From: Pseudomonadota bacterium
GTDB taxonomy: Bacteria; Bdellovibrionota_B; Oligoflexia; Silvanigrellales; Silvanigrellaceae
DNA length: 64,000 nt
Direction of reading: 5' to 3'
NCBI GenBank assembly: GCA_039799905.1
Contig: JBDLRP010000036.1
Coordinates: 32,001 to 96,000, forward strand
Shown: in pieces, positions 1 through 6,711 of the stretch
Numbering within the stretch: position 1 is the first letter of the stretch
Layout: each line of letters starts with the position of its first letter
The notes under the pieces: model-generated
The model's database searches: none
What the model was told of the DNA's origin: nothing
What the model saw: the letters and a program-made list of their open reading frames with translations, nothing else
Program-made: the position numbers and the translations under genes

Positions 1-70
1 AGCGAGCCAGCCTTTTTGCGTTGTGCTCCTTGGTCGCGTTAGGAGAGTCATTGCGGAGTTTACCTGAAAA

Positions 71-1000
71 ATGAGTCTGAAACGGGCAGGGTTGGTTGTC
101 GTTTTGCTGGCTCCGGTTGTTCCGGTCCACGCAGACATTCTCTCAGAAGATGAGATGGATGCCATTGCTGCCCCTGATACGGATGTTGCCGCATCGCGTT
201 GCGGCCTACAGACTCGAGTCTCCGTTCAATTGACGTCGGGAAAGATTCAATTTCCATACGGGCCTCCGGGATTGAAATCTTACAAAGGTTCATCGCAAGG
301 ATCTGGCCTAGGTTTGGATTTTTCGCAGAAGAGTTGCGATTCAGAGTTGGTTGATTCCTATGACGCTCAACTGTCTCTGGCGAATTATTTTCCGTCCAGT
401 GGCCGGCAGTACGATGTCCAGGCCCTATCATGGCTTGATTTGTCGGCAAGCACTGGTCTGACGTTTTCAGTGGTGCAGAGCAAGGCGGACTCTTTGCTTC
501 CTGCATTCTCCGTCCGTGCCGCGACCGGTGCCGGATATGAGCGATTTCTTTATGCACGAGGAGTTTTTTCATTTCAGGCAGTGCCTGCGGCTTTGTCGGG
601 TATCCTGAGTTGGTCGGGACAATTGTTTGGCGAATCCGCAAATTTCAGTCTGCAGGCGGGCAGCGGACGCCTTGTTTTCAGCAGAATTCTCAGCAAATAC
701 AGCACCGCCCGAACATCATCTTCCGTCAACGCATCCTTGGTGAAGATTAACTCAGATAAAAAATTGTCCGGGGTCGATCACCACATCGAGATGAATTTCG
801 GATTTTCGACGCAACAGTCTGCAGCAGGCAGTTCGGTCGGTAGATGCTATCAGCACGCAGTGACCCTCGGATGGAATTCACGGGAACGCGCGGCGGACGG
901 CTTTATGACCGAGAGTCATCCACTTTTACAAGAAGAAAAAACCTACAATCTTGACCTGAAGCATTCGGTTTGGGTCATTCGATGGTCTGAAAAAATTTAG
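71..1000 (+). CDS. Hypothetical exported protein (signal peptide, possibly beta-strand rich)
   Basis: 309-aa ORF; N-terminus MSLKRAGLVVVLLAPVVPVHA-D looks like a Sec signal peptide (VHA); overlaps the stop of the convergent kinase gene by 4 nt; no family recognised. Confidence 0.6.
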   Translation: MSLKRAGLVVVLLAPVVPVHADILSEDEMDAIAAPDTDVAASRCGLQTRVSVQLTSGKIQFPYGPPGLKSYKGSSQGSGLGLDFSQKSCDSELVDSYDAQLSLANYFPSSGRQYDVQALSWLDLSASTGLTFSVVQSKADSLLPAFSVRAATGAGYERFLYARGVFSFQAVPAALSGILSWSGQLFGESANFSLQAGSGRLVFSRILSKYSTARTSSSVNASLVKINSDKKLSGVDHHIEMNFGFSTQQSAAGSSVGRCYQHAVTLGWNSRERAADGFMTESHPLLQEEKTYNLDLKHSVWVIRWSEKI

Positions 1001-1662
1001 ACTTTCCTGAGGCGTTTATAAATCTCGCAGACGTCAACCTCGGTGCTTGGGTCCGAGAAAATTTGATCTGACAACTTAAGTTTGTCTGCAATGATTGCGC
1101 GCACTCTCTTGATATGAAGGTTGGTTCTTTCCAGTTGATTCTTGCTAGCCCACTGTGCCGCAGCGACAATCAATGACGAAACCTGTTCAGCGGTCAGTTT
1201 TTCTGTGTTGATAGTGATATCAAAATCCGAGTGGTCATGAATATCGAGCCCATACAGCTGCAGGTAACGCTTGCGATTTTGTTCATCGCGTTTCAGAGTC
1301 TTGTAAAGAACGGATTCGTAGGTTGCTTCCTTTTCACTTTCGCGTTTGTTGATTCTGCGTGCCCGCGCTTCCAGCGGAGCGTGCAGCCAGATTCGCAGGT
1401 CGGCATTCATAAGCCATGCCGCAAGGCGTGTTCCAAGAACAATATTTTCTTGCAGCGCGGCTCTGATGCACTTCAGGTCCGTCAGATAGTCATAAATGAA
1501 ATTGTCCGGAGCTTCGCGGTGCAGTTCCTCGAATGGGATTCCAAGTTCTTTTGCGAGATCGCGAAAAGTGTAATTAACGATGTTGAGTCCGAGAGCCCGC
1601 CCGACGTTGGTGGTGGCAGTCGTGTTACCGCATCCGCTGTGACCAGAAATCGCAATCCGCAT
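997..1662 (-). CDS. cmk: Cytidylate kinase, type 2 (archaeal/spirochaete-like)
   Basis: MRIAISGHSGCGNTT P-loop, NYTFRDLA, RLAAWL..ADLRIWL.APLE.RA.RI, RD..N.KRY..LYG.DI motifs; start moved to ATG at 1662, preceded by GGAG. Confidence 0.8.
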   Translation of the reverse strand: MRIAISGHSGCGNTTATTNVGRALGLNIVNYTFRDLAKELGIPFEELHREAPDNFIYDYLTDLKCIRAALQENIVLGTRLAAWLMNADLRIWLHAPLEARARRINKRESEKEATYESVLYKTLKRDEQNRKRYLQLYGLDIHDHSDFDITINTEKLTAEQVSSLIVAAAQWASKNQLERTNLHIKRVRAIIADKLKLSDQIFSDPSTEVDVCEIYKRLRKV

Positions 1663-1706
1663 AGTCGTCGGTCTCCATAAAAACACGTCAATCTTGAACG
1701 TATACG

Positions 1707-4700
1707 TTATCGGCTGCGGCTTTTCCAGTCAGCGTCAAACTCCCGAAGCTTCTTCAAAGCCGACTCGAATTCATCGTCTGAGACGCTGATGACAAAGCGC
1801 AGATGGCAGGGCAACCCCGTCCATGTAGCGTTATTTAGCAACAATCCATTGAAGGTAAAGATGTCGTGAGCAATTTTGTCGGCACATGCCGTTGGATCGA
1901 ATTGGGTTTCAGGTGGCTGTGCCCGACGCAGGTCCTCGATGTACCCGCGCGGGGAGGCGCACACAAAAAGGCCGCCCTCGGAATCTGCAACCTCCCATCC
2001 CAGTGAGGTCAGCAACTCAGAAAGTCGAGCTCCGCGCTGCTGCAACTGAGAGCGCTGCTGATCCAGAAATTCATGGATCGGGTGCTGGTCAGAGCAAAGA
2101 GCTTGATAGATTTTTTTTGCAGCGTATTTGACTGTCGAATGCGGTGCCGAAGAAATTCTTGTTCGGATGGATGATGCAAGTGTCGTATCCGTGCTGACAC
2201 TCCAGCCAAATCGGAGTCCTCCTGCGGCCAGCTCTTTGGACATACCGCCCATCAGAAAGATCGGAACTGACTCTCTTTCATGTTCCGAAATAAACCGGCT
2301 GAGGCGGGTGTAGGTCTGCTTCCGATGGAATTCCAAGCCTGAAAAAATCGAATCAAGAATCAAACCGCATTTGTGTTGGGCAAGAACCTCGAGGATGTCT
2401 GAGATTTCGCCCGAGCTGTAGACAGCACCCGTTGGATTGACAATCGGAGCGTTCAAGTAAAGCCAATGGGCTCCGGTGGCGGAGATTGTGTTGTCGAGTT
2501 CTTGAGCCGATATTTTAAAGCGATCGCGCGCGTGGGTCCTGACCCGCGTATGGTCTACATCGAAAAAATCACATGCCGATGAAAAATAACCGTAAGCACC
2601 CTCAGGCAATAAAATCTTTTGTTGTTTTTCGCTGATGGTTTCGAGCATCGCGGAGAATAATGGTGCAACTCCATTGCCCAAGATCACCGCTGACTCATCG
2701 ACGGATTCGAGGCCGAACCTGTGTGCAACAAATTCCACGATAGATTGTTCAACGTTGAGTTCTTGCGCGGAGACGTTCTGCCTGAGGTAGCTTTCCATGA
2801 TTGCGGCATGAACATAGGGTGGACTCTTGAGGCAGTTCTCTCCGTAGTCGAGACGAGTCGTGTTTGCCCCCAGATTCAACTGATGCGTGCGGATAGCCGG
2901 ATGAGCGAAAGCCTTTTGGATAAATGGAGCCAATGGCCCATGTTTGGAATCGTTGTCAGATTTTGGCAGGCGCAGGTCTTCGGATTTATTCTTGCGCAAA
3001 TCCGTCAATTGAAAATTCAATAGGTCAGAAAAAATTCTTGAATAGTACTTTTGTGTGAGCAGAGGAGTACGGCTGTATGTGAGCTCAGCTGCAGAGCTCA
3101 GCTGCTCTAGTAGGGTTGAGTTTTCAGAAAAAAGAAAACAAAGCTCAAGGTCGCGGTAGACTTTGTTTCTGACAAGTCCGCAGAGGAGTCCGACGTGTTT
3201 GGGCAGAGGATTGTCTGCAAGAAATGAAAGAACTCCGTGCGTCGAAGGTTGGCTCGACAATTCAAATTGCTGCGATAAGTCGATGAGCAGGCGTGTCGAA
3301 CTGCTCTTGGCGACCTCGCAGAGTCTAACAAACGCGTCACTGCTTCTTACTTCGAAGTCCTGAAGACTGACGATGGCCAGTTCAGGTTGCAGCTTTTCAA
3401 TCAGTTTGCAAATCTCGTCGGCCCGTCTGGGGATCTCGAGAACCACCGATTGTGAGAGGAGGTGGTCTTCGCCTCGGCGGCCGAGGATTGCATTGAGCTC
3501 TTTGTCGATGAAGGTCAGCTGAGGACGAAAAAGTTGTAAATGATTTTTGATGAGGCTGCGTCTGTTGGGAGCGATGAAGACACTCTTTGCCGTCATCGGG
3601 ATTCGCCAGTAGCTTCGTAAAAACTGCGCTATCTGTCTACGGAGTTGGGGTTCGCCCTCGGTGTCGGAGTAGGGGAGATTAGGTTTTTGCTGCAACCAGT
3701 CTGCAATGTTGCCAATGAAATTGATTTTTTCCTCGGCGAGCTCTTCATTATCGAAGGATAAATCGAGGCCACTCCGGGATTCCTCGAATTCATTCTGCCC
3801 GATGAGCTTGAATAGAGATTTGATTTGCGACGGCTGTCGGAGTTGAGCCTCATAGACCGAAAGACTATGCGCAATCCTTCCGCCCGCATTTGCATAGGCC
3901 TGCGCCGTCTGTGCACAGATGGGCTCGTCGCTGTTCAAGCTCGTATAAAACTCAAACCGGTGAGGAGTTGCCTTTTCAATATCGACAAGCGGCTGAATGT
4001 CGGTATCGGAGGCTTGCCAGACTTTGGTTGACCATATTTTACGTATTGAGAAGCCCCGCCGGGTGAACAATCGATCAAGCACCGCGGCGCCGGGTCGGCC
4101 TCCCATATTCAGTATTATTTTTGCTGACGGTTTGCAGACTGAAATCGCTTCTTCGACCGCCCTGGCGATCAGCCCCAGTCCGAACTGGTCTTCAATGTAG
4201 CCTTGTTTTTCGCAGTAGTTGCTGAGGCTATATAGAAATTGGTCATCGGCGTCTTCTGTTGCGAACTGGTCTGCGAGCAATGGTTCAGGGCTCAAAACCT
4301 GGGGAATGCAGCCAATCACTCGGTCTAGTTGAATCTTGTGGTCAATGGCGTAACCGAGCAAATCCGAACAGTGAAATTCAACCCGATCGAGGAGAGATTT
4401 TCCTTCACTGTCAATGATGGGCGTCCCGGAATTGTCCAATGCGTTGAGGAGTAGGTTGATGCGGGCGCAGGTGATGGCTCGTGGATTGATATCTAAACCA
4501 TAGAGTTTATAAGGCTGGGCTTGTCTGGCAAGTGCAATTGATATCCAGCCGTTTCCGCAACCAAGCTCGGCTATCGTTCGTCCCTGAAATTCTCCGGCGG
4601 GATAGCGGGCGAGGCCTTCGAAAAAAGTAAAAGACCAGTCTTCAGGCGTAAAGATACTCGGCAACTGAAGCAGGGCTAACTGATTTTCGCTCTGACTGTG

Positions 4701-4928
4701 ACCATCGAGAGTGAGGCAACTGAACGCGAAATGATATTTGCCAATGAATGCGTCGATGTCATCGTCGGATTCGTCACAGATTGCCTTAAGACTCTGCAGA
4801 AATCGCCTGGCGATGCCTGCACCGTCGGGCTGCGCGCACTGCTCAAGCAGTTCTTTGAATAGGTCATACGCAGCCTGACTTGATTCGCTGCATCTTTTGA
4901 GGAAGTCAGCTGGATTGAGGGCTGTCAC
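1707..4928 (-). CDS. Methionine S-methyltransferase, full-length plant-type (SAM methyltransferase plus PLP aminotransferase-like domains)
   Basis: PSIFTPEDWSFTFFEGL, ELGCGNGWISIA (SAM motif I), GLDINPRA, LLDRVEF..SDLL, GCIPQ, LSNYC, EDQFGLGLIARAVEE, NMGGRPG, PHSTVKYAAKK and WTGLP..LRF match plant MMT along the whole length. Start placed at GTG 4928 (AAGGAG upstream) instead of the ORF-caller 5003. Confidence 0.9.
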   Translation of the reverse strand: MTALNPADFLKRCSESSQAAYDLFKELLEQCAQPDGAGIARRFLQSLKAICDESDDDIDAFIGKYHFAFSCLTLDGHSQSENQLALLQLPSIFTPEDWSFTFFEGLARYPAGEFQGRTIAELGCGNGWISIALARQAQPYKLYGLDINPRAITCARINLLLNALDNSGTPIIDSEGKSLLDRVEFHCSDLLGYAIDHKIQLDRVIGCIPQVLSPEPLLADQFATEDADDQFLYSLSNYCEKQGYIEDQFGLGLIARAVEEAISVCKPSAKIILNMGGRPGAAVLDRLFTRRGFSIRKIWSTKVWQASDTDIQPLVDIEKATPHRFEFYTSLNSDEPICAQTAQAYANAGGRIAHSLSVYEAQLRQPSQIKSLFKLIGQNEFEESRSGLDLSFDNEELAEEKINFIGNIADWLQQKPNLPYSDTEGEPQLRRQIAQFLRSYWRIPMTAKSVFIAPNRRSLIKNHLQLFRPQLTFIDKELNAILGRRGEDHLLSQSVVLEIPRRADEICKLIEKLQPELAIVSLQDFEVRSSDAFVRLCEVAKSSSTRLLIDLSQQFELSSQPSTHGVLSFLADNPLPKHVGLLCGLVRNKVYRDLELCFLFSENSTLLEQLSSAAELTYSRTPLLTQKYYSRIFSDLLNFQLTDLRKNKSEDLRLPKSDNDSKHGPLAPFIQKAFAHPAIRTHQLNLGANTTRLDYGENCLKSPPYVHAAIMESYLRQNVSAQELNVEQSIVEFVAHRFGLESVDESAVILGNGVAPLFSAMLETISEKQQKILLPEGAYGYFSSACDFFDVDHTRVRTHARDRFKISAQELDNTISATGAHWLYLNAPIVNPTGAVYSSGEISDILEVLAQHKCGLILDSIFSGLEFHRKQTYTRLSRFISEHERESVPIFLMGGMSKELAAGGLRFGWSVSTDTTLASSIRTRISSAPHSTVKYAAKKIYQALCSDQHPIHEFLDQQRSQLQQRGARLSELLTSLGWEVADSEGGLFVCASPRGYIEDLRRAQPPETQFDPTACADKIAHDIFTFNGLLLNNATWTGLPCHLRFVISVSDDEFESALKKLREFDADWKSRSR

Positions 4929-5055
4929 AGGTCTGTTCTCCTTCGCTTCGAAGATTTTGGACGATATTCGAGCGGCGTTCTTTTGCAAGGTTGCAAAATC
5001 CAAAAAGCATCCGCAGACTATGGCTCTGAAATTTAAATCGAATGCGGGGTCAAAT

Positions 5056-6168
5056 ATGACAGGGTTGTCGTTCCTTCGTTCAATGGCCGGACTTATGGGG
5101 CATTGTTTGGTTAGCCCGAGGCACGGCAGAATTGTTGCTTGCGTCGTACTCGTCGGTTTTGAGCTGAATGTGTTTGCTCAACCCGCACCTTCAGACTCGA
5201 CTGGAGCCATTACCGCAACTGCTCCCGCTACTACATACGCACAAAATCCGAGCGGTTCCGGCGCTGATAGTCCGTTACATGCCGTTCCTCCGTCATCACT
5301 TCTCGATTCGAGATTGCATCCTGCTGTGCTGCCAACAGAAGCAGAGCTTTCGTGCTCGGTGCTCTTCGGCTGCCAAATGGGTTTGACGCGTGGTTTTTCA
5401 TTCGGCGGTGATGCCTACCGGACGCTCGGAATGACACTTCTCGGGCAGCATTTTTACGGTGCTGGGGCTTGGACGTATCTGGACGTCAACGTTGGGTATC
5501 AGTTTCTTCGACTCGCTGACCGGCAATCCACCCTGATGGGTGCCTTTGGTTTTCGCACTTTCAGCTACGAAAACTCAGAGGGAGCGAAATTGTCACGATC
5601 TGGTCCCGCATTCCGAACAGCTTATGCTGAGGCGGTAATGCCTGCTTACACGCAAGGAATGGTGTTCGAGGCTTTCTCGTCGACGGTCCGCACTGCGGGT
5701 GGAGCGGATCAGCCATTCAACAAAAATGACGACAAAAAAGTTCGAACCTTAGTGCGCGAATACGCGCAATTTTTGCGAGCGAATCCATTGCTGAGGCTGC
5801 AAATGCCTGCCGACCTTGAGATAGTAAATTGGTCTCCGTCACAGGTCGATTTACCGGCCCCTATGCGCGGATATCTGCGCATCAACCCAATTTATGAGCA
5901 GGCGGATCTGCTGATTCGCGATGGCGAGGTCACAGCGTATAGCTGGTTTGAGAAGCGTTTTGCTCTGCAATTGATGTTGCTGACGACTTACGCATCGCCA
6001 GAACAGAGATCGGGTCGGCTGGGTCTTCTTGGCGGCCTCGGCTTCGAAATGGCTGCAACTCGCTCAACTTTCGAGTCCAAATCGCCGAGCCCGGCGCTAA
6101 ACCCTGAGATTCCCGAGGCTCCTTTGCTGCGCGGAAAGCTTGAGATTCAGGTTACCTACCAGTTCTAA
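5056..6168 (+). CDS. Hypothetical exported protein, probable outer-membrane beta-barrel
   Basis: Signal-like hydrophobic stretch ending VFA-Q, Pro/Thr/Ser-rich linker, alternating strands, C-terminal ..LEIQVTYQF (terminal Phe). Start uncertain (ATGs at 5056, 5083, 5095). Confidence 0.55.
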   Translation: MTGLSFLRSMAGLMGHCLVSPRHGRIVACVVLVGFELNVFAQPAPSDSTGAITATAPATTYAQNPSGSGADSPLHAVPPSSLLDSRLHPAVLPTEAELSCSVLFGCQMGLTRGFSFGGDAYRTLGMTLLGQHFYGAGAWTYLDVNVGYQFLRLADRQSTLMGAFGFRTFSYENSEGAKLSRSGPAFRTAYAEAVMPAYTQGMVFEAFSSTVRTAGGADQPFNKNDDKKVRTLVREYAQFLRANPLLRLQMPADLEIVNWSPSQVDLPAPMRGYLRINPIYEQADLLIRDGEVTAYSWFEKRFALQLMLLTTYASPEQRSGRLGLLGGLGFEMAATRSTFESKSPSPALNPEIPEAPLLRGKLEIQVTYQF

Positions 6169-6288
6169 CAAGTTCTAACGTTCTTGCTTGCGCTGCCTCC
6201 AGCTTTGTATTAAGCGAAACGACTCACGTCTGGAAACAGCCGATTTCGCGCTGTAACTCTGGATAAGTTGTGAATAGGAAGGTTGCCA

Positions 6289-6711
6289 ATGGCAAAGAAA
6301 ATAGTCGGTCTCATCAAGCTCCAGATTACAGCTGGACAGGCCACAGCGGCTCCGCCAATCGGTCCGGCCCTGGGTCAACGCGGTGTTAACATTGCGATGT
6401 TCGTTAAAGAGTTCAACGCCCGCACTCAAAAGCAGGCAGGAACCATCCTCCCGACGATCATCACTGTGTATTCAGATAAATCATTCACATTCATCACGAA
6501 GACGCCTCCTGCGACAGTACTTCTGAAGCAGGCTGCGAAGATCCAGTCCGGAAGCAAGACTCCCGGCAAGGCTCTTTGCGGTTCCGTGACTGAAAAGCAA
6601 GTTGAGGAAATCGCCAAGACGAAGCTCCCCGACTTGAACTGCTACGATGTGGAAACTGCGAAACGCCTCATCAAGGGTTCGGCGCGTTCCATGGGACTCG
6701 AAGTCAAGTAA
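6289..6711 (+). CDS. rplK: 50S ribosomal protein L11
   Basis: [39 protein letters not shown] 6289 after AGGAAGG. Confidence 0.98.

What the first reader, a model, noticed from the sequence alone, without database searches (positions are those of the whole stretch)
1707..4928. Full-length plant-type methionine S-methyltransferase in a bacterium
Seen: a ~1073-aa protein carrying plant-MMT motifs in order from N- to C-terminus, not just the methyltransferase domain. Knowledge: MMT makes S-methylmethionine (SMM) from Met and SAM; SMM feeds the plant SMM cycle, Se volatilisation and DMSP synthesis. Characterised bacterial Met methyltransferases (MmtN, BurB) are short single-domain enzymes in DMSP or toxin clusters, and two-domain bacterial homologues are rare. 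Inference: this organism makes SMM, and its lineage may be close to the donor or recipient of the plant gene. No DMSP pathway genes are adjacent in this window.
Basis: partly seen in the sequence, partly recalled or inferred. Interest (0 to 1): 0.8.

Follow-up and report, generated by a model that had tools for sequence, protein, structure and literature searches.

The report
Bacterial methionine S-methyltransferase with intact PLP site
This freshwater bacterium carries a full-length relative of the plant enzyme that makes S-methylmethionine, a kind of gene already reported in bacteria, and unlike the plant enzymes it keeps the residues of a vitamin-B6 (PLP) active site, so it likely also carries out a second, still unknown reaction.

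Summary
Window 1707-4928 (minus strand) is a 1,073-codon gene. Its product matches Selaginella methionine S-methyltransferase (MMT) end to end at 43% identity.

The kind is already in print. Peng et al. 2022 (PMC9135737) describe plant-like "Group III" MMT in Oligoflexia and Deltaproteobacteria and leave its role in bacteria open. The gene is native here: strong matches occur in 12 of 12 same-genus and 8 of 12 other same-family (Silvanigrellaceae-like) genomes, with conserved neighbours.

What I add:
- **Three domains, not two.** The protein is methyltransferase, then a degenerate aminotransferase-fold domain, then a complete aminotransferase domain.
- **PLP site kept in bacteria, lost in plants.** The PLP lysine is present in 139 of 140 bacterial sequences and 14 of 14 deeper relatives, and in 0 of 120 land plants. 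Eleven other bacteria-invariant C-domain positions and two middle-domain positions are also lost in plants. The methyltransferase site is shared (69 of 73 invariant columns).

So this is the PLP-competent bacterial form, not a plant-like copy. A second reaction is predicted but unidentified.

The trees do not place this lineage near the plant gene. No DMSP genes are adjacent. A homocysteine S-methyltransferase/MTHFR fusion lies elsewhere in the genome.

This scan reached the same reading in five other genomes.

The parts
1707..4928 (-). MMT coding sequence: 1,073 codons from GTG 4928, stop codon at 1707-1709. The longest ORF reaches a TTG at 5003.
   Evidence: full-length match to Selaginella MMT
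4938..4943 (-). AAGGAG, a Shine-Dalgarno-like sequence 9 nt upstream of the GTG start
   Evidence: read directly from the sequence
4707..4928 (-). N-terminal helical region (ORF residues 26-99) that precedes the methyltransferase fold
   Evidence: Helices 31-90 in the AlphaFold2 model; conserved in alignment A1
3819..4706 (-). SAM-dependent methionine S-methyltransferase domain (ORF residues 100-395), homologous to MmtN
   Evidence: 7vvv matches at E 5e-12 over chain residues 17-243 and, with the family profile, 24-293. Pfam methyltransferase hits. G148, G150, G152, D171 and C232 are invariant in all 276 sequences compared.
4548..4562 (-). GxGxG SAM-binding motif (G148-C-G150-N-G152)
   Evidence: Translation ELGCGNGWIS of 4539-4568; invariant
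2898..3812 (-). Middle domain (ORF residues 398-702): a degenerate class I aminotransferase fold with no PLP lysine. It carries S644 and R645, which are invariant in bacteria and lost in plants.
   Evidence: hhalign against the C-terminal domain: E 1.7e-4, 202 columns in register. 10 of 48 homologous middle domains hit PF00155 weakly. AlphaFold2 pLDDT 88.1. The listed Foldseek PDB hits are class I/II-fold PLP enzymes, mostly aminotransferases, best E 2e-10.
1710..2897 (-). C-terminal class I aminotransferase-fold domain (ORF residues 703-1098) with a complete set of PLP-site residues
   Evidence: PF00155 E 1e-32. Foldseek target-normalised TM-score about 0.8 to aspartate and aromatic aminotransferases. 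N856, D884, K923, R931 and R1069 are conserved.
2235..2237 (-). Codon of K923, the predicted PLP Schiff-base lysine (motif GGMSKELAAGGLRFG)
   Evidence: Translation of 2205-2249. Aligned to the SK lysine motif of aminotransferase 4my5. Lys in 139 of 140 bacterial sequences and 0 of 120 land-plant sequences.
997..1686 (-). Archaeal-type (d)CMP kinase gene, 20 nt downstream of the MMT stop on the same strand. Likely co-transcribed; any functional link is unknown.
   Evidence: TIGR02173 at 120.8 bits, over its 102.1 cut-off. PF13189. The same neighbour, 14-106 nt downstream or overlapping, in 12 of the related loci, and one further locus has it about 3.5 kb away. No terminator-like site lies between the two genes.

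Best explanation
Window 1707-4928 (minus strand) encodes a 1,073-residue, three-domain, full-length homologue of plant methionine S-methyltransferase that is predicted to make S-methylmethionine (SMM) from methionine and SAM.

**Shown here**
- The order of domains is an MmtN-like SAM methyltransferase, a degenerate aminotransferase-fold middle domain, and a C-terminal class I aminotransferase-fold domain.
- The protein belongs to the clade that Peng et al. 2022 call Group III MMT.
- The gene is a vertically kept feature of a freshwater Silvanigrellaceae-like family.
- The bacterial members, this one included, keep the PLP lysine (K923), the phosphate-binding arginine (R931) and about ten further active-site positions. 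All 120 land-plant MMTs examined have lost them.

**Inferred**
- The methyltransferase domain methylates Met as in plants, because its invariant columns are shared with plants.
- The C-terminal domain binds PLP and catalyses a second reaction. Its most likely substrate is the SMM just made or its precursor: transamination, decarboxylation or gamma-elimination of the sulfonium amino acid, or amination of the Met keto acid.
- The middle domain stands in for the second subunit of an aminotransferase dimer and supplies S644/R645 to that site.
- SMM could be returned to Met by the genome's homocysteine S-methyltransferase/MTHFR fusion, which would close an SMM cycle.
For: **Homology**
- 43% identity and 859 bits to Selaginella MMT over residues 33-1089.
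- JGI names many of the 120 listed relatives 'methionine S-methyltransferase'.
- 7vvv matches at E 5e-12, with D171, S203/L204 and C232 aligned to its D69, S101/L102 and C121. Peng et al. name these as the SAM-binding residues.

**Shared methyltransferase site**
- 69 of 73 bacteria-invariant columns are kept in 120 plant sequences. The 2 that are lost are V to I and D to E.

**PLP site**
- K923: 116/117 + 23/23 bacterial, 14/14 deeper relatives, 0/120 land plants, 0/2 streptophyte algae.
- R931: 116/117 + 23/23 bacterial, against 8/120 plants.
- Only 20 of 41 bacteria-invariant C-domain columns are kept in plants. Twelve are lost: R717, G721, E722, N723, G778, Y804, F807, K923, R931, L1012, F1013, V1071. 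In the middle domain S644 and R645 are also lost.

**Folds**
- Full-length model: pLDDT 85.6, pTM 0.83.
- C-terminal domain: target-normalised TM-score about 0.8 to aminotransferases.
- Middle domain: pLDDT 88.1, and the listed PDB hits are class I/II-fold PLP enzymes, mostly aminotransferases. hhalign of middle against C-terminal domain gives E 1.7e-4.

**Native gene**
- Strong matches in 12/12 same-genus genomes and 8/12 other same-family genomes.
- Conserved flanking genes in 14-20 loci.

**Possible return step**
- NF006396, bifunctional homocysteine S-methyltransferase/MTHFR, at 683.9 bits over its 453 cut-off, next to metH.
Against: - Nothing here shows enzyme activity, and I saw no assay of a bacterial Group III MMT. 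Williams et al. 2019, which Peng et al. cite for these bacteria, is not held.
- The Met-binding residues E127 and R132 of MmtN do not map cleanly in the pairwise alignment.
- The tyrosine that usually follows the PLP aspartate in class I aminotransferases (recalled) is Phe (F887) in 138 of 140 bacterial sequences. The PLP chemistry may therefore be atypical or absent.
- Plant MMT works without this site, so the C-terminal domain may be mainly structural.
- No neighbour points to a substrate for the second site; neighbours differ between phyla.
- I could not inspect the model's coordinates, and the complex predictor was not available. Contact between the middle and C-terminal domains is therefore inferred only from the high pTM and from the joint loss of these residues in plants.
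Confidence: 0.8

Rival explanations
1. The enzyme makes only SMM, and the C-terminal domain is a scaffold or regulatory module as in plants. On this view the conserved PLP-type residues serve folding or ligand sensing, not catalysis.
For: Plant MMT is active although it lacks K923 and R931 (0/120 and 8/120). F887 takes the place of the usual tyrosine. No conserved partner gene suggests a second pathway step.
Against: Twelve C-domain positions plus S644/R645 are at least 97% conserved across 140 bacterial sequences that average only 40% pairwise identity in this domain. They are also kept in the 14 deeper relatives (11 of the 14 positions at 93% or more), and they decay only in plants. That pattern is typical of an active site under selection.
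Confidence: 0.35
2. The gene is the first step of DMSP synthesis by the methylation pathway, as MmtN is in marine bacteria.
For: One of four tested bacteria with Group III MMT (Pseudobacteriovorax antillogorgiicola) made DMSP, according to Peng et al. 2022 citing Williams et al. 2019. The intact PLP domain could in principle decarboxylate or transaminate SMM towards DMSP.
Against: Three of those four strains made none. All listed runs that hold this DNA are freshwater, lake, reservoir or lagoon metagenomes. No candidate downstream genes lie in the window or in 80 related loci. The only group II decarboxylase in the genome is PanP-like and lies on another contig. No PF16867 DMSP lyase was found in the 94%-complete genome.
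Confidence: 0.1
3. The methyltransferase domain methylates a substrate other than free methionine, for example an intermediate held on the PLP domain. The protein would then not be an SMM synthase.
For: No activity data exist for this clade in what I could read. MmtN residues E127 and R132 do not align cleanly.
Against: The methyltransferase domain's invariant columns are nearly all shared with plant MMT (69/73). Plant MMT's activity on Met is established in the literature (stated in Peng et al. 2022).
Confidence: 0.08
4. The gene is a recent transfer from a plant, or plant contamination of the assembly.
For: High full-length similarity to plant MMT.
Against: It is present with the same flanking genes (rplK-rpoBC side, CMP kinase side) in related genomes, and in 20 of 24 family genomes. 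GC content is even across the region. There are no introns. It keeps PLP residues that every plant sequence examined has lost. Its clade excludes plants at SH-aLRT 97.
Confidence: 0.01

Closest known systems
Bacterial Group III MMT (the plant-like MMT of some Oligoflexia and Deltaproteobacteria; Peng et al. 2022, PMC9135737, citing Williams et al. 2019)
   Same: Same architecture, same class of bacteria (Oligoflexia), and no linkage to DMSP, NRPS or Met-cycle genes, as that paper reports. The window protein groups with named Silvanigrellaceae, Silvanigrella, Fluviispira and Pseudobacteriovorax proteins.
   Different: Nothing essential; this is a further member. In the passages I read, the paper speaks of a 'dual domain structure'. 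It does not mention the middle pseudo-aminotransferase domain or the difference in the PLP site.
Plant methionine S-methyltransferase (EC 2.1.1.12), e.g. Selaginella moellendorffii XP_024516277.1
   Same: Colinear over about 1,060 residues at 43% identity. The methyltransferase site is shared in 69 of 73 invariant columns. The three-domain layout is the same.
   Different: Plants lack the PLP lysine (0/120) and mostly lack R931, R645, Y804, G778 and the R717/G721-E-N motif. The bacterial protein keeps them all.
MmtN (Group I/II single-domain Met S-methyltransferase; PDB 7vvv, identity of the entry recalled)
   Same: Homologous methyltransferase fold. The GxGxG motif and SAM-binding residues D69, S101/L102 and C121 have counterparts.
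   Different: MmtN has about 300 residues and no aminotransferase-fold domains. The match is only E 5e-12. MmtN genes sit in DMSP or NRPS clusters or beside HMT; this gene does not.
Class I (fold type I) aminotransferases and ACC synthases
   Same: The C-terminal domain has the fold (target-normalised TM-score about 0.8). It also has the NPxG asparagine, the aspartate, the SK lysine, the phosphate arginine and the C-terminal arginine.
   Different: It is fused behind a methyltransferase and a pseudo-aminotransferase domain. Phe replaces the usual Tyr after the aspartate. It reaches no NCBIfam equivalog cut-off: the best is GntC at 79 bits against a cut-off of 415.

Membership tests
Group III MMT (plant-like methionine S-methyltransferase) | N-terminal MmtN-like SAM methyltransferase domain with GxGxG and the SAM-binding Asp, Ser-Leu and Cys | tested here: met
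   G148/G150/G152, D171 and C232 are invariant; S203/L204 are aligned to S101/L102
Group III MMT (plant-like methionine S-methyltransferase) | Large protein (about 115 kDa) with a C-terminal aminotransferase-like domain, colinear with plant MMT | tested here: met
   PF00155 at E 1e-32; residues 33-1089 match Selaginella MMT residues 14-1083
Group III MMT (plant-like methionine S-methyltransferase) | Groups with plant and bacterial MMT, apart from other relatives, in a tree | tested here: met
   A split of support 100 separates the MMT clade (plants included) from the 30-35%-identity relatives. MmtN Groups I and II were not in my trees.
Group III MMT (plant-like methionine S-methyltransferase) | Catalyses Met + SAM -> SMM + SAH | not testable with these tools
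   Inferred from the shared methyltransferase-site columns (69/73)
Plant MMT in the narrow sense | C-terminal domain without a PLP lysine (the state seen in all plant sequences examined) | tested here: not met
   K923 is present here. Plants: 0/120.
MmtN (Group I/II) | Single-domain protein of about 300 residues | tested here: not met
   1,073 residues in three domains
BurB | SET-domain Met methyltransferase (described so in the abstract of PMC12542666, seen in the listing) | tested here: not met
   No SET domain among the Pfam hits
Class I/II aminotransferase superfamily (PF00155), C-terminal domain | Fold plus the PLP lysine, the pyridine-N aspartate, the asparagine, the phosphate arginine and the carboxylate arginine | tested here: met
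   K923, D884, N856, R931, R1069
Class I/II aminotransferase superfamily (PF00155), C-terminal domain | Tyrosine three residues after the aspartate, hydrogen-bonded to PLP O3' (feature recalled) | tested here: not met
   F887 in 138 of 140 bacterial sequences
SMM cycle (MMT + HMT) | A homocysteine S-methyltransferase able to use SMM, encoded in the same genome | tested here: inconclusive
   A PF02574 domain occurs only in MetH and in an HMT/MTHFR fusion (NF006396, above its cut-off). The stand-alone MmuM-type model NF007020 reaches only 86 bits against a cut-off of 215. Which methyl donor the fusion uses is unknown.

The most novel reading that the evidence does not exclude
Bacterial Group III MMTs are bifunctional. 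A methyltransferase makes SMM. A PLP site then converts the sulfonium amino acid, or feeds methionine to the methyltransferase. That site is built by an intramolecular pseudo-dimer: a dead aminotransferase domain supplies S644/R645 to a live one. The plant enzyme would then be a PLP-dead descendant of this bacterial form, taken up once by an early streptophyte. The 'aminotransferase-like' tail of plant MMT would be the fossil of a lost second reaction.
Probability: 0.4. Interest if true: 0.75.

Novelty: new member of a known kind. Interest (0 to 1): 0.45.

Why it matters
The gene itself adds one more freshwater lineage to a published class.

The comparison made here has wider reach. It gives a testable reason for the unexplained aminotransferase-like part of MMT: bacteria keep a working-looking PLP site, and all plants examined have lost it. 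It also predicts an unknown sulfonium or methionine reaction in at least six bacterial phyla, several of them with cultured members (Silvanigrella, Fluviispira, Aliikangiella, Xenococcus PCC 7305).

If the second reaction releases DMS or leads towards DMSP, it would bear on sulfur-cycling budgets. It also argues that the ancestral state was bacterial and PLP-competent, which fits a bacterium-to-streptophyte transfer, although my trees do not resolve this.

Tried and rejected
- **Complex prediction.** Complex prediction (middle domain against C-terminal domain, with PLP) was not available. The queue was full, and one search was not sent on. No fold was made, so the contact between the domains is untested.
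- **AU test under the mixture model.** It never finished. Only the LG+G4 test stands. There the tree with all bacterial MMTs held together was not rejected (p-AU 0.637) and had a log-likelihood 10.7 higher. The nesting of plants inside bacteria seen in the FastTree run and at SH-aLRT 93 is therefore not established.
- **Sequencing runs.** No RNA holder was listed. I laid no reads.
- **Rfam.** The whole window gave 0 matches at gathering score, so there is no SAM riboswitch before the gene.
- **Promoter and terminator scan of 1-6400.** It found no more than shuffled sequence gives.
- **Papers not held.**
  - Bourgis et al. 1999, by DOI.
  - Bourgis et al. 1999, by a PMC id I recalled.
  - Williams et al. 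2019.

  I therefore could not check what they say on the PLP lysine or on assays of bacterial MMT.
- **Literature searches on the PLP site and on transfer to plants.**
  - 'methionine S-methyltransferase' + pyridoxal + aminotransferase + C-terminal gave 2 papers, neither on this point.
  - 'methionine S-methyltransferase' + 'horizontal gene transfer' + streptophyte gave one paper holding all three terms, on Porphyra, which I did not read.
  - These searches cover only the held library. The supplements of Peng et al. 2022 (Supplementary Fig. 11) were not opened and may show the alignment.
- **Conserved functional partner across phyla.** Apart from generic response regulators, nothing recurs.
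- **Our own scan, by sequence.** Nothing was found.
Full report
**The observation**

The minus strand carries one long open frame, 1707..5003 (1,098 aa from a TTG). I take that start as the real one, for two reasons:
- The nearest homologues begin at the residue aligned to position 26 of the long frame (alignment A1).
- An AAGGAG lies 9 nt upstream of the GTG.

GC content is even (0.49-0.52) through the gene and its flanks.

Pfam sees class I SAM methyltransferase signals at residues 130-200 and Aminotran_1_2 at 707-1084 (E 1e-32). NCBIfam gives only sub-threshold aminotransferase hits.

**Is it really MMT over its whole length?**

Yes.
- A search of 1.84 billion cluster representatives gave 1,613 hits at E <= 0.001 and about 40 full-length clusters above 650 bits.
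- One of these, P0127, is Selaginella moellendorffii methionine S-methyltransferase XP_024516277.1. It matches query residues 33-1089 against its own 14-1083, at 43% identity and 859 bits.
- Proteins of the streptophyte algae Closterium and Mesostigma are in the same list.
- The best solved relative of the N-terminal domain is 7vvv (E 5e-12). I recall this entry as the MmtN structure of Peng et al. 2022.
- The SAM-binding residues that paper names (D69, S101/L102, C121) align to D171, S203/L204 and C232. MmtN's Met-binding E127 and R132 do not map cleanly in that pairwise alignment.

**Already known**

I read sections 12-15 of Peng et al. 2022 (PMC9135737). They make four relevant points:
- Plant and bacterial MMT together are their Group III.
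- Only one of four tested strains with it (Pseudobacteriovorax antillogorgiicola) made DMSP.
- The gene is not linked to DMSP, NRPS or Met-cycle genes, so the role of SMM in these bacteria is 'difficult to predict'.

The finding is therefore a new member of a published kind. Williams et al. 2019, their source, is not held.

**Whose gene is it?**

- The nearest records are a MAG labelled Pseudomonadota (98% identity) and Silvanigrellaceae or Silvanigrella MAGs at 61-66%.
- Among relatives of the window's genome, strong full-length matches occur in:
  - 12 of 12 same-genus genomes (one is only a C-terminal piece, one is in two pieces, one has an in-frame TGA);
  - 8 of 12 genomes of other genera in the family;
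  - 0 of 1 other genome of the order;
  - 1 of 15 other genomes of the class.
- Twenty Silvanigrellales loci share the divergent upstream neighbour. Fourteen share a downstream CMP-kinase-like gene. Twelve share the rpoB side.
- The gene is thus native and vertically kept in this family.
- All listed runs that hold the DNA are freshwater, lake, reservoir or lagoon metagenomes.

**Distribution**

A pattern scan of one genome for each of 185,579 species found 166 stretches, of which 157 encode a relative. By record title, the 80 loci kept are:

| Label | Loci |
|---|---|
| Pseudomonadota | 30 |
| Bdellovibrionota | 25 |
| Cyanobacteriota (Pleurocapsales) | 9 |
| Acidobacteriota | 8 |
| Bacteroidota | 4 |
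| Myxococcota | 1 |
| No phylum label (2 of them Sericytochromatia) | 3 |

. Some MAG labels are doubtful, because several 'Pseudomonadota' entries group with Silvanigrellaceae in my trees. The word-indexed search of 5.8 billion proteins gave 553 relatives among the 7,998 candidates scored. The gene is scarce per genome but taxonomically wide.

**Three domains**

- hhalign of the family's middle region (residues 395-690) against its C-terminal region aligned 202 columns in register (E 1.7e-4, probability 49%).
- Ten of 48 middle domains hit PF00155 weakly (best E 1.1e-4). The window's own middle domain hit nothing.
- AlphaFold2 on the full-length alignment gave pLDDT 85.6 and pTM 0.83. Its Foldseek hits were class I aminotransferases at a target-normalised TM-score of about 0.8.
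- A separate model of residues 398-702 (48-row alignment A2) gave pLDDT 88.1. Its listed PDB hits are class I/II-fold PLP enzymes, mostly aminotransferases (E about 2e-10, query-normalised TM-score about 0.6).

So MMT is a methyltransferase followed by a degenerate aminotransferase domain and a complete one. Class I aminotransferases work as dimers with shared active sites (established knowledge). An intramolecular pseudo-dimer is therefore the natural reading. This is inferred, not shown.

**The PLP site**

I aligned 276 sequences:
- 117 proteins of at least 950 aa (2 shorter ones dropped, 2 rotifer ones set apart);
- 23 further representatives;
- 14 deeper relatives of 30-35% identity;
- 120 land-plant MMTs;
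- 2 streptophyte algae;
- 2 rotifers.

The unnamed metagenomic proteins are taken to be bacterial. That is an assumption.

| Position | Bacteria | Deeper relatives | Land plants |
|---|---|---|---|
| K923 (Schiff-base lysine) | 116/117 + 23/23 | 14/14 | 0/120 (L 60, F 38, S 7, T 4, P 4 shown) |
| R931 | 116/117 + 23/23 | 14/14 | 8/120 |

In plants a Lys stands one position later in 59 of 120 sequences, so it is not conserved there either. The two streptophyte algae also lack K923.

An unbiased scan looked at columns at least 97% conserved in the 140 bacteria:

| Domain | Bacteria-invariant columns | Kept in plants (>=0.9) | Lost in plants (<=0.2) |
|---|---|---|---|
| Methyltransferase | 73 | 69 | 2 (V to I, D to E) |
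| Middle | 17 | 14 | 2 (S644, R645) |
| C-terminal | 41 | 20 | 12 |

The twelve C-terminal losses are R717, G721, E722, N723, G778, Y804, F807, K923, R931, L1012, F1013 and V1071.

In the profile alignment to aminotransferase 4my5 these positions fall on the usual Lys, NPxG, Asp and aromatic motifs.

Two caveats apply. The residue after the Asp that is usually Tyr (recalled) is Phe in 138 of 140 bacteria. And the joint loss of S644/R645 with the PLP residues is only a correlation.

I reached this result before consulting the scan's notes. Those notes report the same reading for five other genomes.

**Relation to the plant gene**

- Streptophytes form one clade (support 100) that follows the species order Mesostigma, Closterium, land plants.
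- Rooted on the deeper relatives, FastTree nests this clade among bacteria.
- IQ-TREE with LG+G4 leaves the backbone open.
- The PMSF mixture tree puts it in a 39-row clade at SH-aLRT 93.
- The AU test under LG+G4 does not reject a tree with all bacterial MMTs together (p 0.637; that tree's log-likelihood is 10.7 higher).

Nesting is therefore not established. The window's clade lies inside a 28-row bacterial clade (SH-aLRT 97) without plants, so this lineage has no special tie to the plant gene. The outgroup and all bacterial clades keep the PLP site and only streptophytes lack it. This makes the plant state the derived one.

**Surroundings and the rest of the genome**

- Twenty nt downstream on the same strand lies an archaeal-type (d)CMP kinase (TIGR02173, 120.8 bits against a 102.1 cut-off).
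- Upstream and divergent lies a 423-aa ORF with no family hit, followed by rplK-rplA-rplJ-rplL-rpoB-rpoC.
- There is no riboswitch, and no promoter or terminator signal above chance.
- PF02574 occurs only in MetH (1,165 aa) and in the adjacent 653-aa homocysteine S-methyltransferase/MTHFR fusion (NF006396, 683.9 bits against a 453 cut-off). This fusion is a candidate for returning SMM to Met. Its methyl donor is unknown.
- The single group II decarboxylase is PanP-like.
- No PF16867 DMSP lyase was found in this 94%-complete genome.

**Verdict**

The claim of rarity and novelty is overtaken by the 2022 paper, and the link to the origin of the plant gene is unsupported.

The bacterial enzyme has three domains and keeps a PLP site that plants have lost, which predicts a second activity. 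That activity is unidentified, and no assay, contact map or expression data could be obtained here.

Noticed in passing
window 997-1686 (-); L086:7416-8117 (+) = own genome about 3.6 kb beyond the MMT stop; L030:7357-7995 and L044:7321-7962: Pyrimidine kinases lie near MMT in two phyla. An archaeal-type (d)CMP kinase follows MMT closely in the window and in 12 Silvanigrellaceae-like loci. A PRK-family uridine kinase lies about 3.6 kb away in the same lineage. In two Thermoanaerobaculia loci a uridine kinase overlaps the MMT start by 4 nt. I have no explanation.
   Followed up: partly
L018:4208-6175, L019:11186-13183, L020:11243-13234: In Silvanigrella and Fluviispira loci an acetyl-CoA-synthetase-like gene (ACAS_N + AMP-binding) overlaps the MMT stop by 1-28 nt. 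A small ORF of 100-121 aa with no Pfam hit overlaps the MMT start by 4 nt.
   Followed up: partly
window 4897-6168 (+), likely start near 5020: Divergent neighbour of MMT with no Pfam or NCBIfam hit. It has a signal-peptide-like N-terminus and ends in ...VTYQF, like an outer-membrane barrel. It is conserved next to MMT in 20 Silvanigrellales loci.
   Followed up: partly
proteins P0093, P0119 (Rotaria rotifers): Full-length MMT in bdelloid-type rotifers nests inside a Bacteroidota (Crocinitomicaceae) clade in all three trees. This suggests a separate bacterium-to-animal transfer. P0093 keeps the PLP lysine; P0119 has Glu there and a deletion.
   Followed up: partly
proteins P0142 (Closterium), P0153 (Mesostigma): Streptophyte algae have MMT homologues that branch below land plants in species order. 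[quoted passage not shown]
   Followed up: partly
proteins P0154-P0174; L081: A deeper clade with the same three-domain architecture (30-35% identity, named 'aminotransferase/methylase' by JGI) keeps IGCIPQV, GxGxG and the PLP lysine. Its function is unknown.
   Followed up: partly
proteins P0217-P0219, P0233-P0235: Much longer proteins (about 1,490-1,800 aa) match the methyltransferase and aminotransferase parts in two stretches, so they may be larger fusions. I did not look at them.
   Followed up: no
L034, L036, L042, L078 (cyanobacteria); L035, L053, L055 (Kangiellaceae); L038, L058, L082: Response-regulator genes sit directly beside MMT in several unrelated phyla: divergent in Pleurocapsales, downstream in Kangiellaceae. 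The family is so common that this may be chance.
   Followed up: partly
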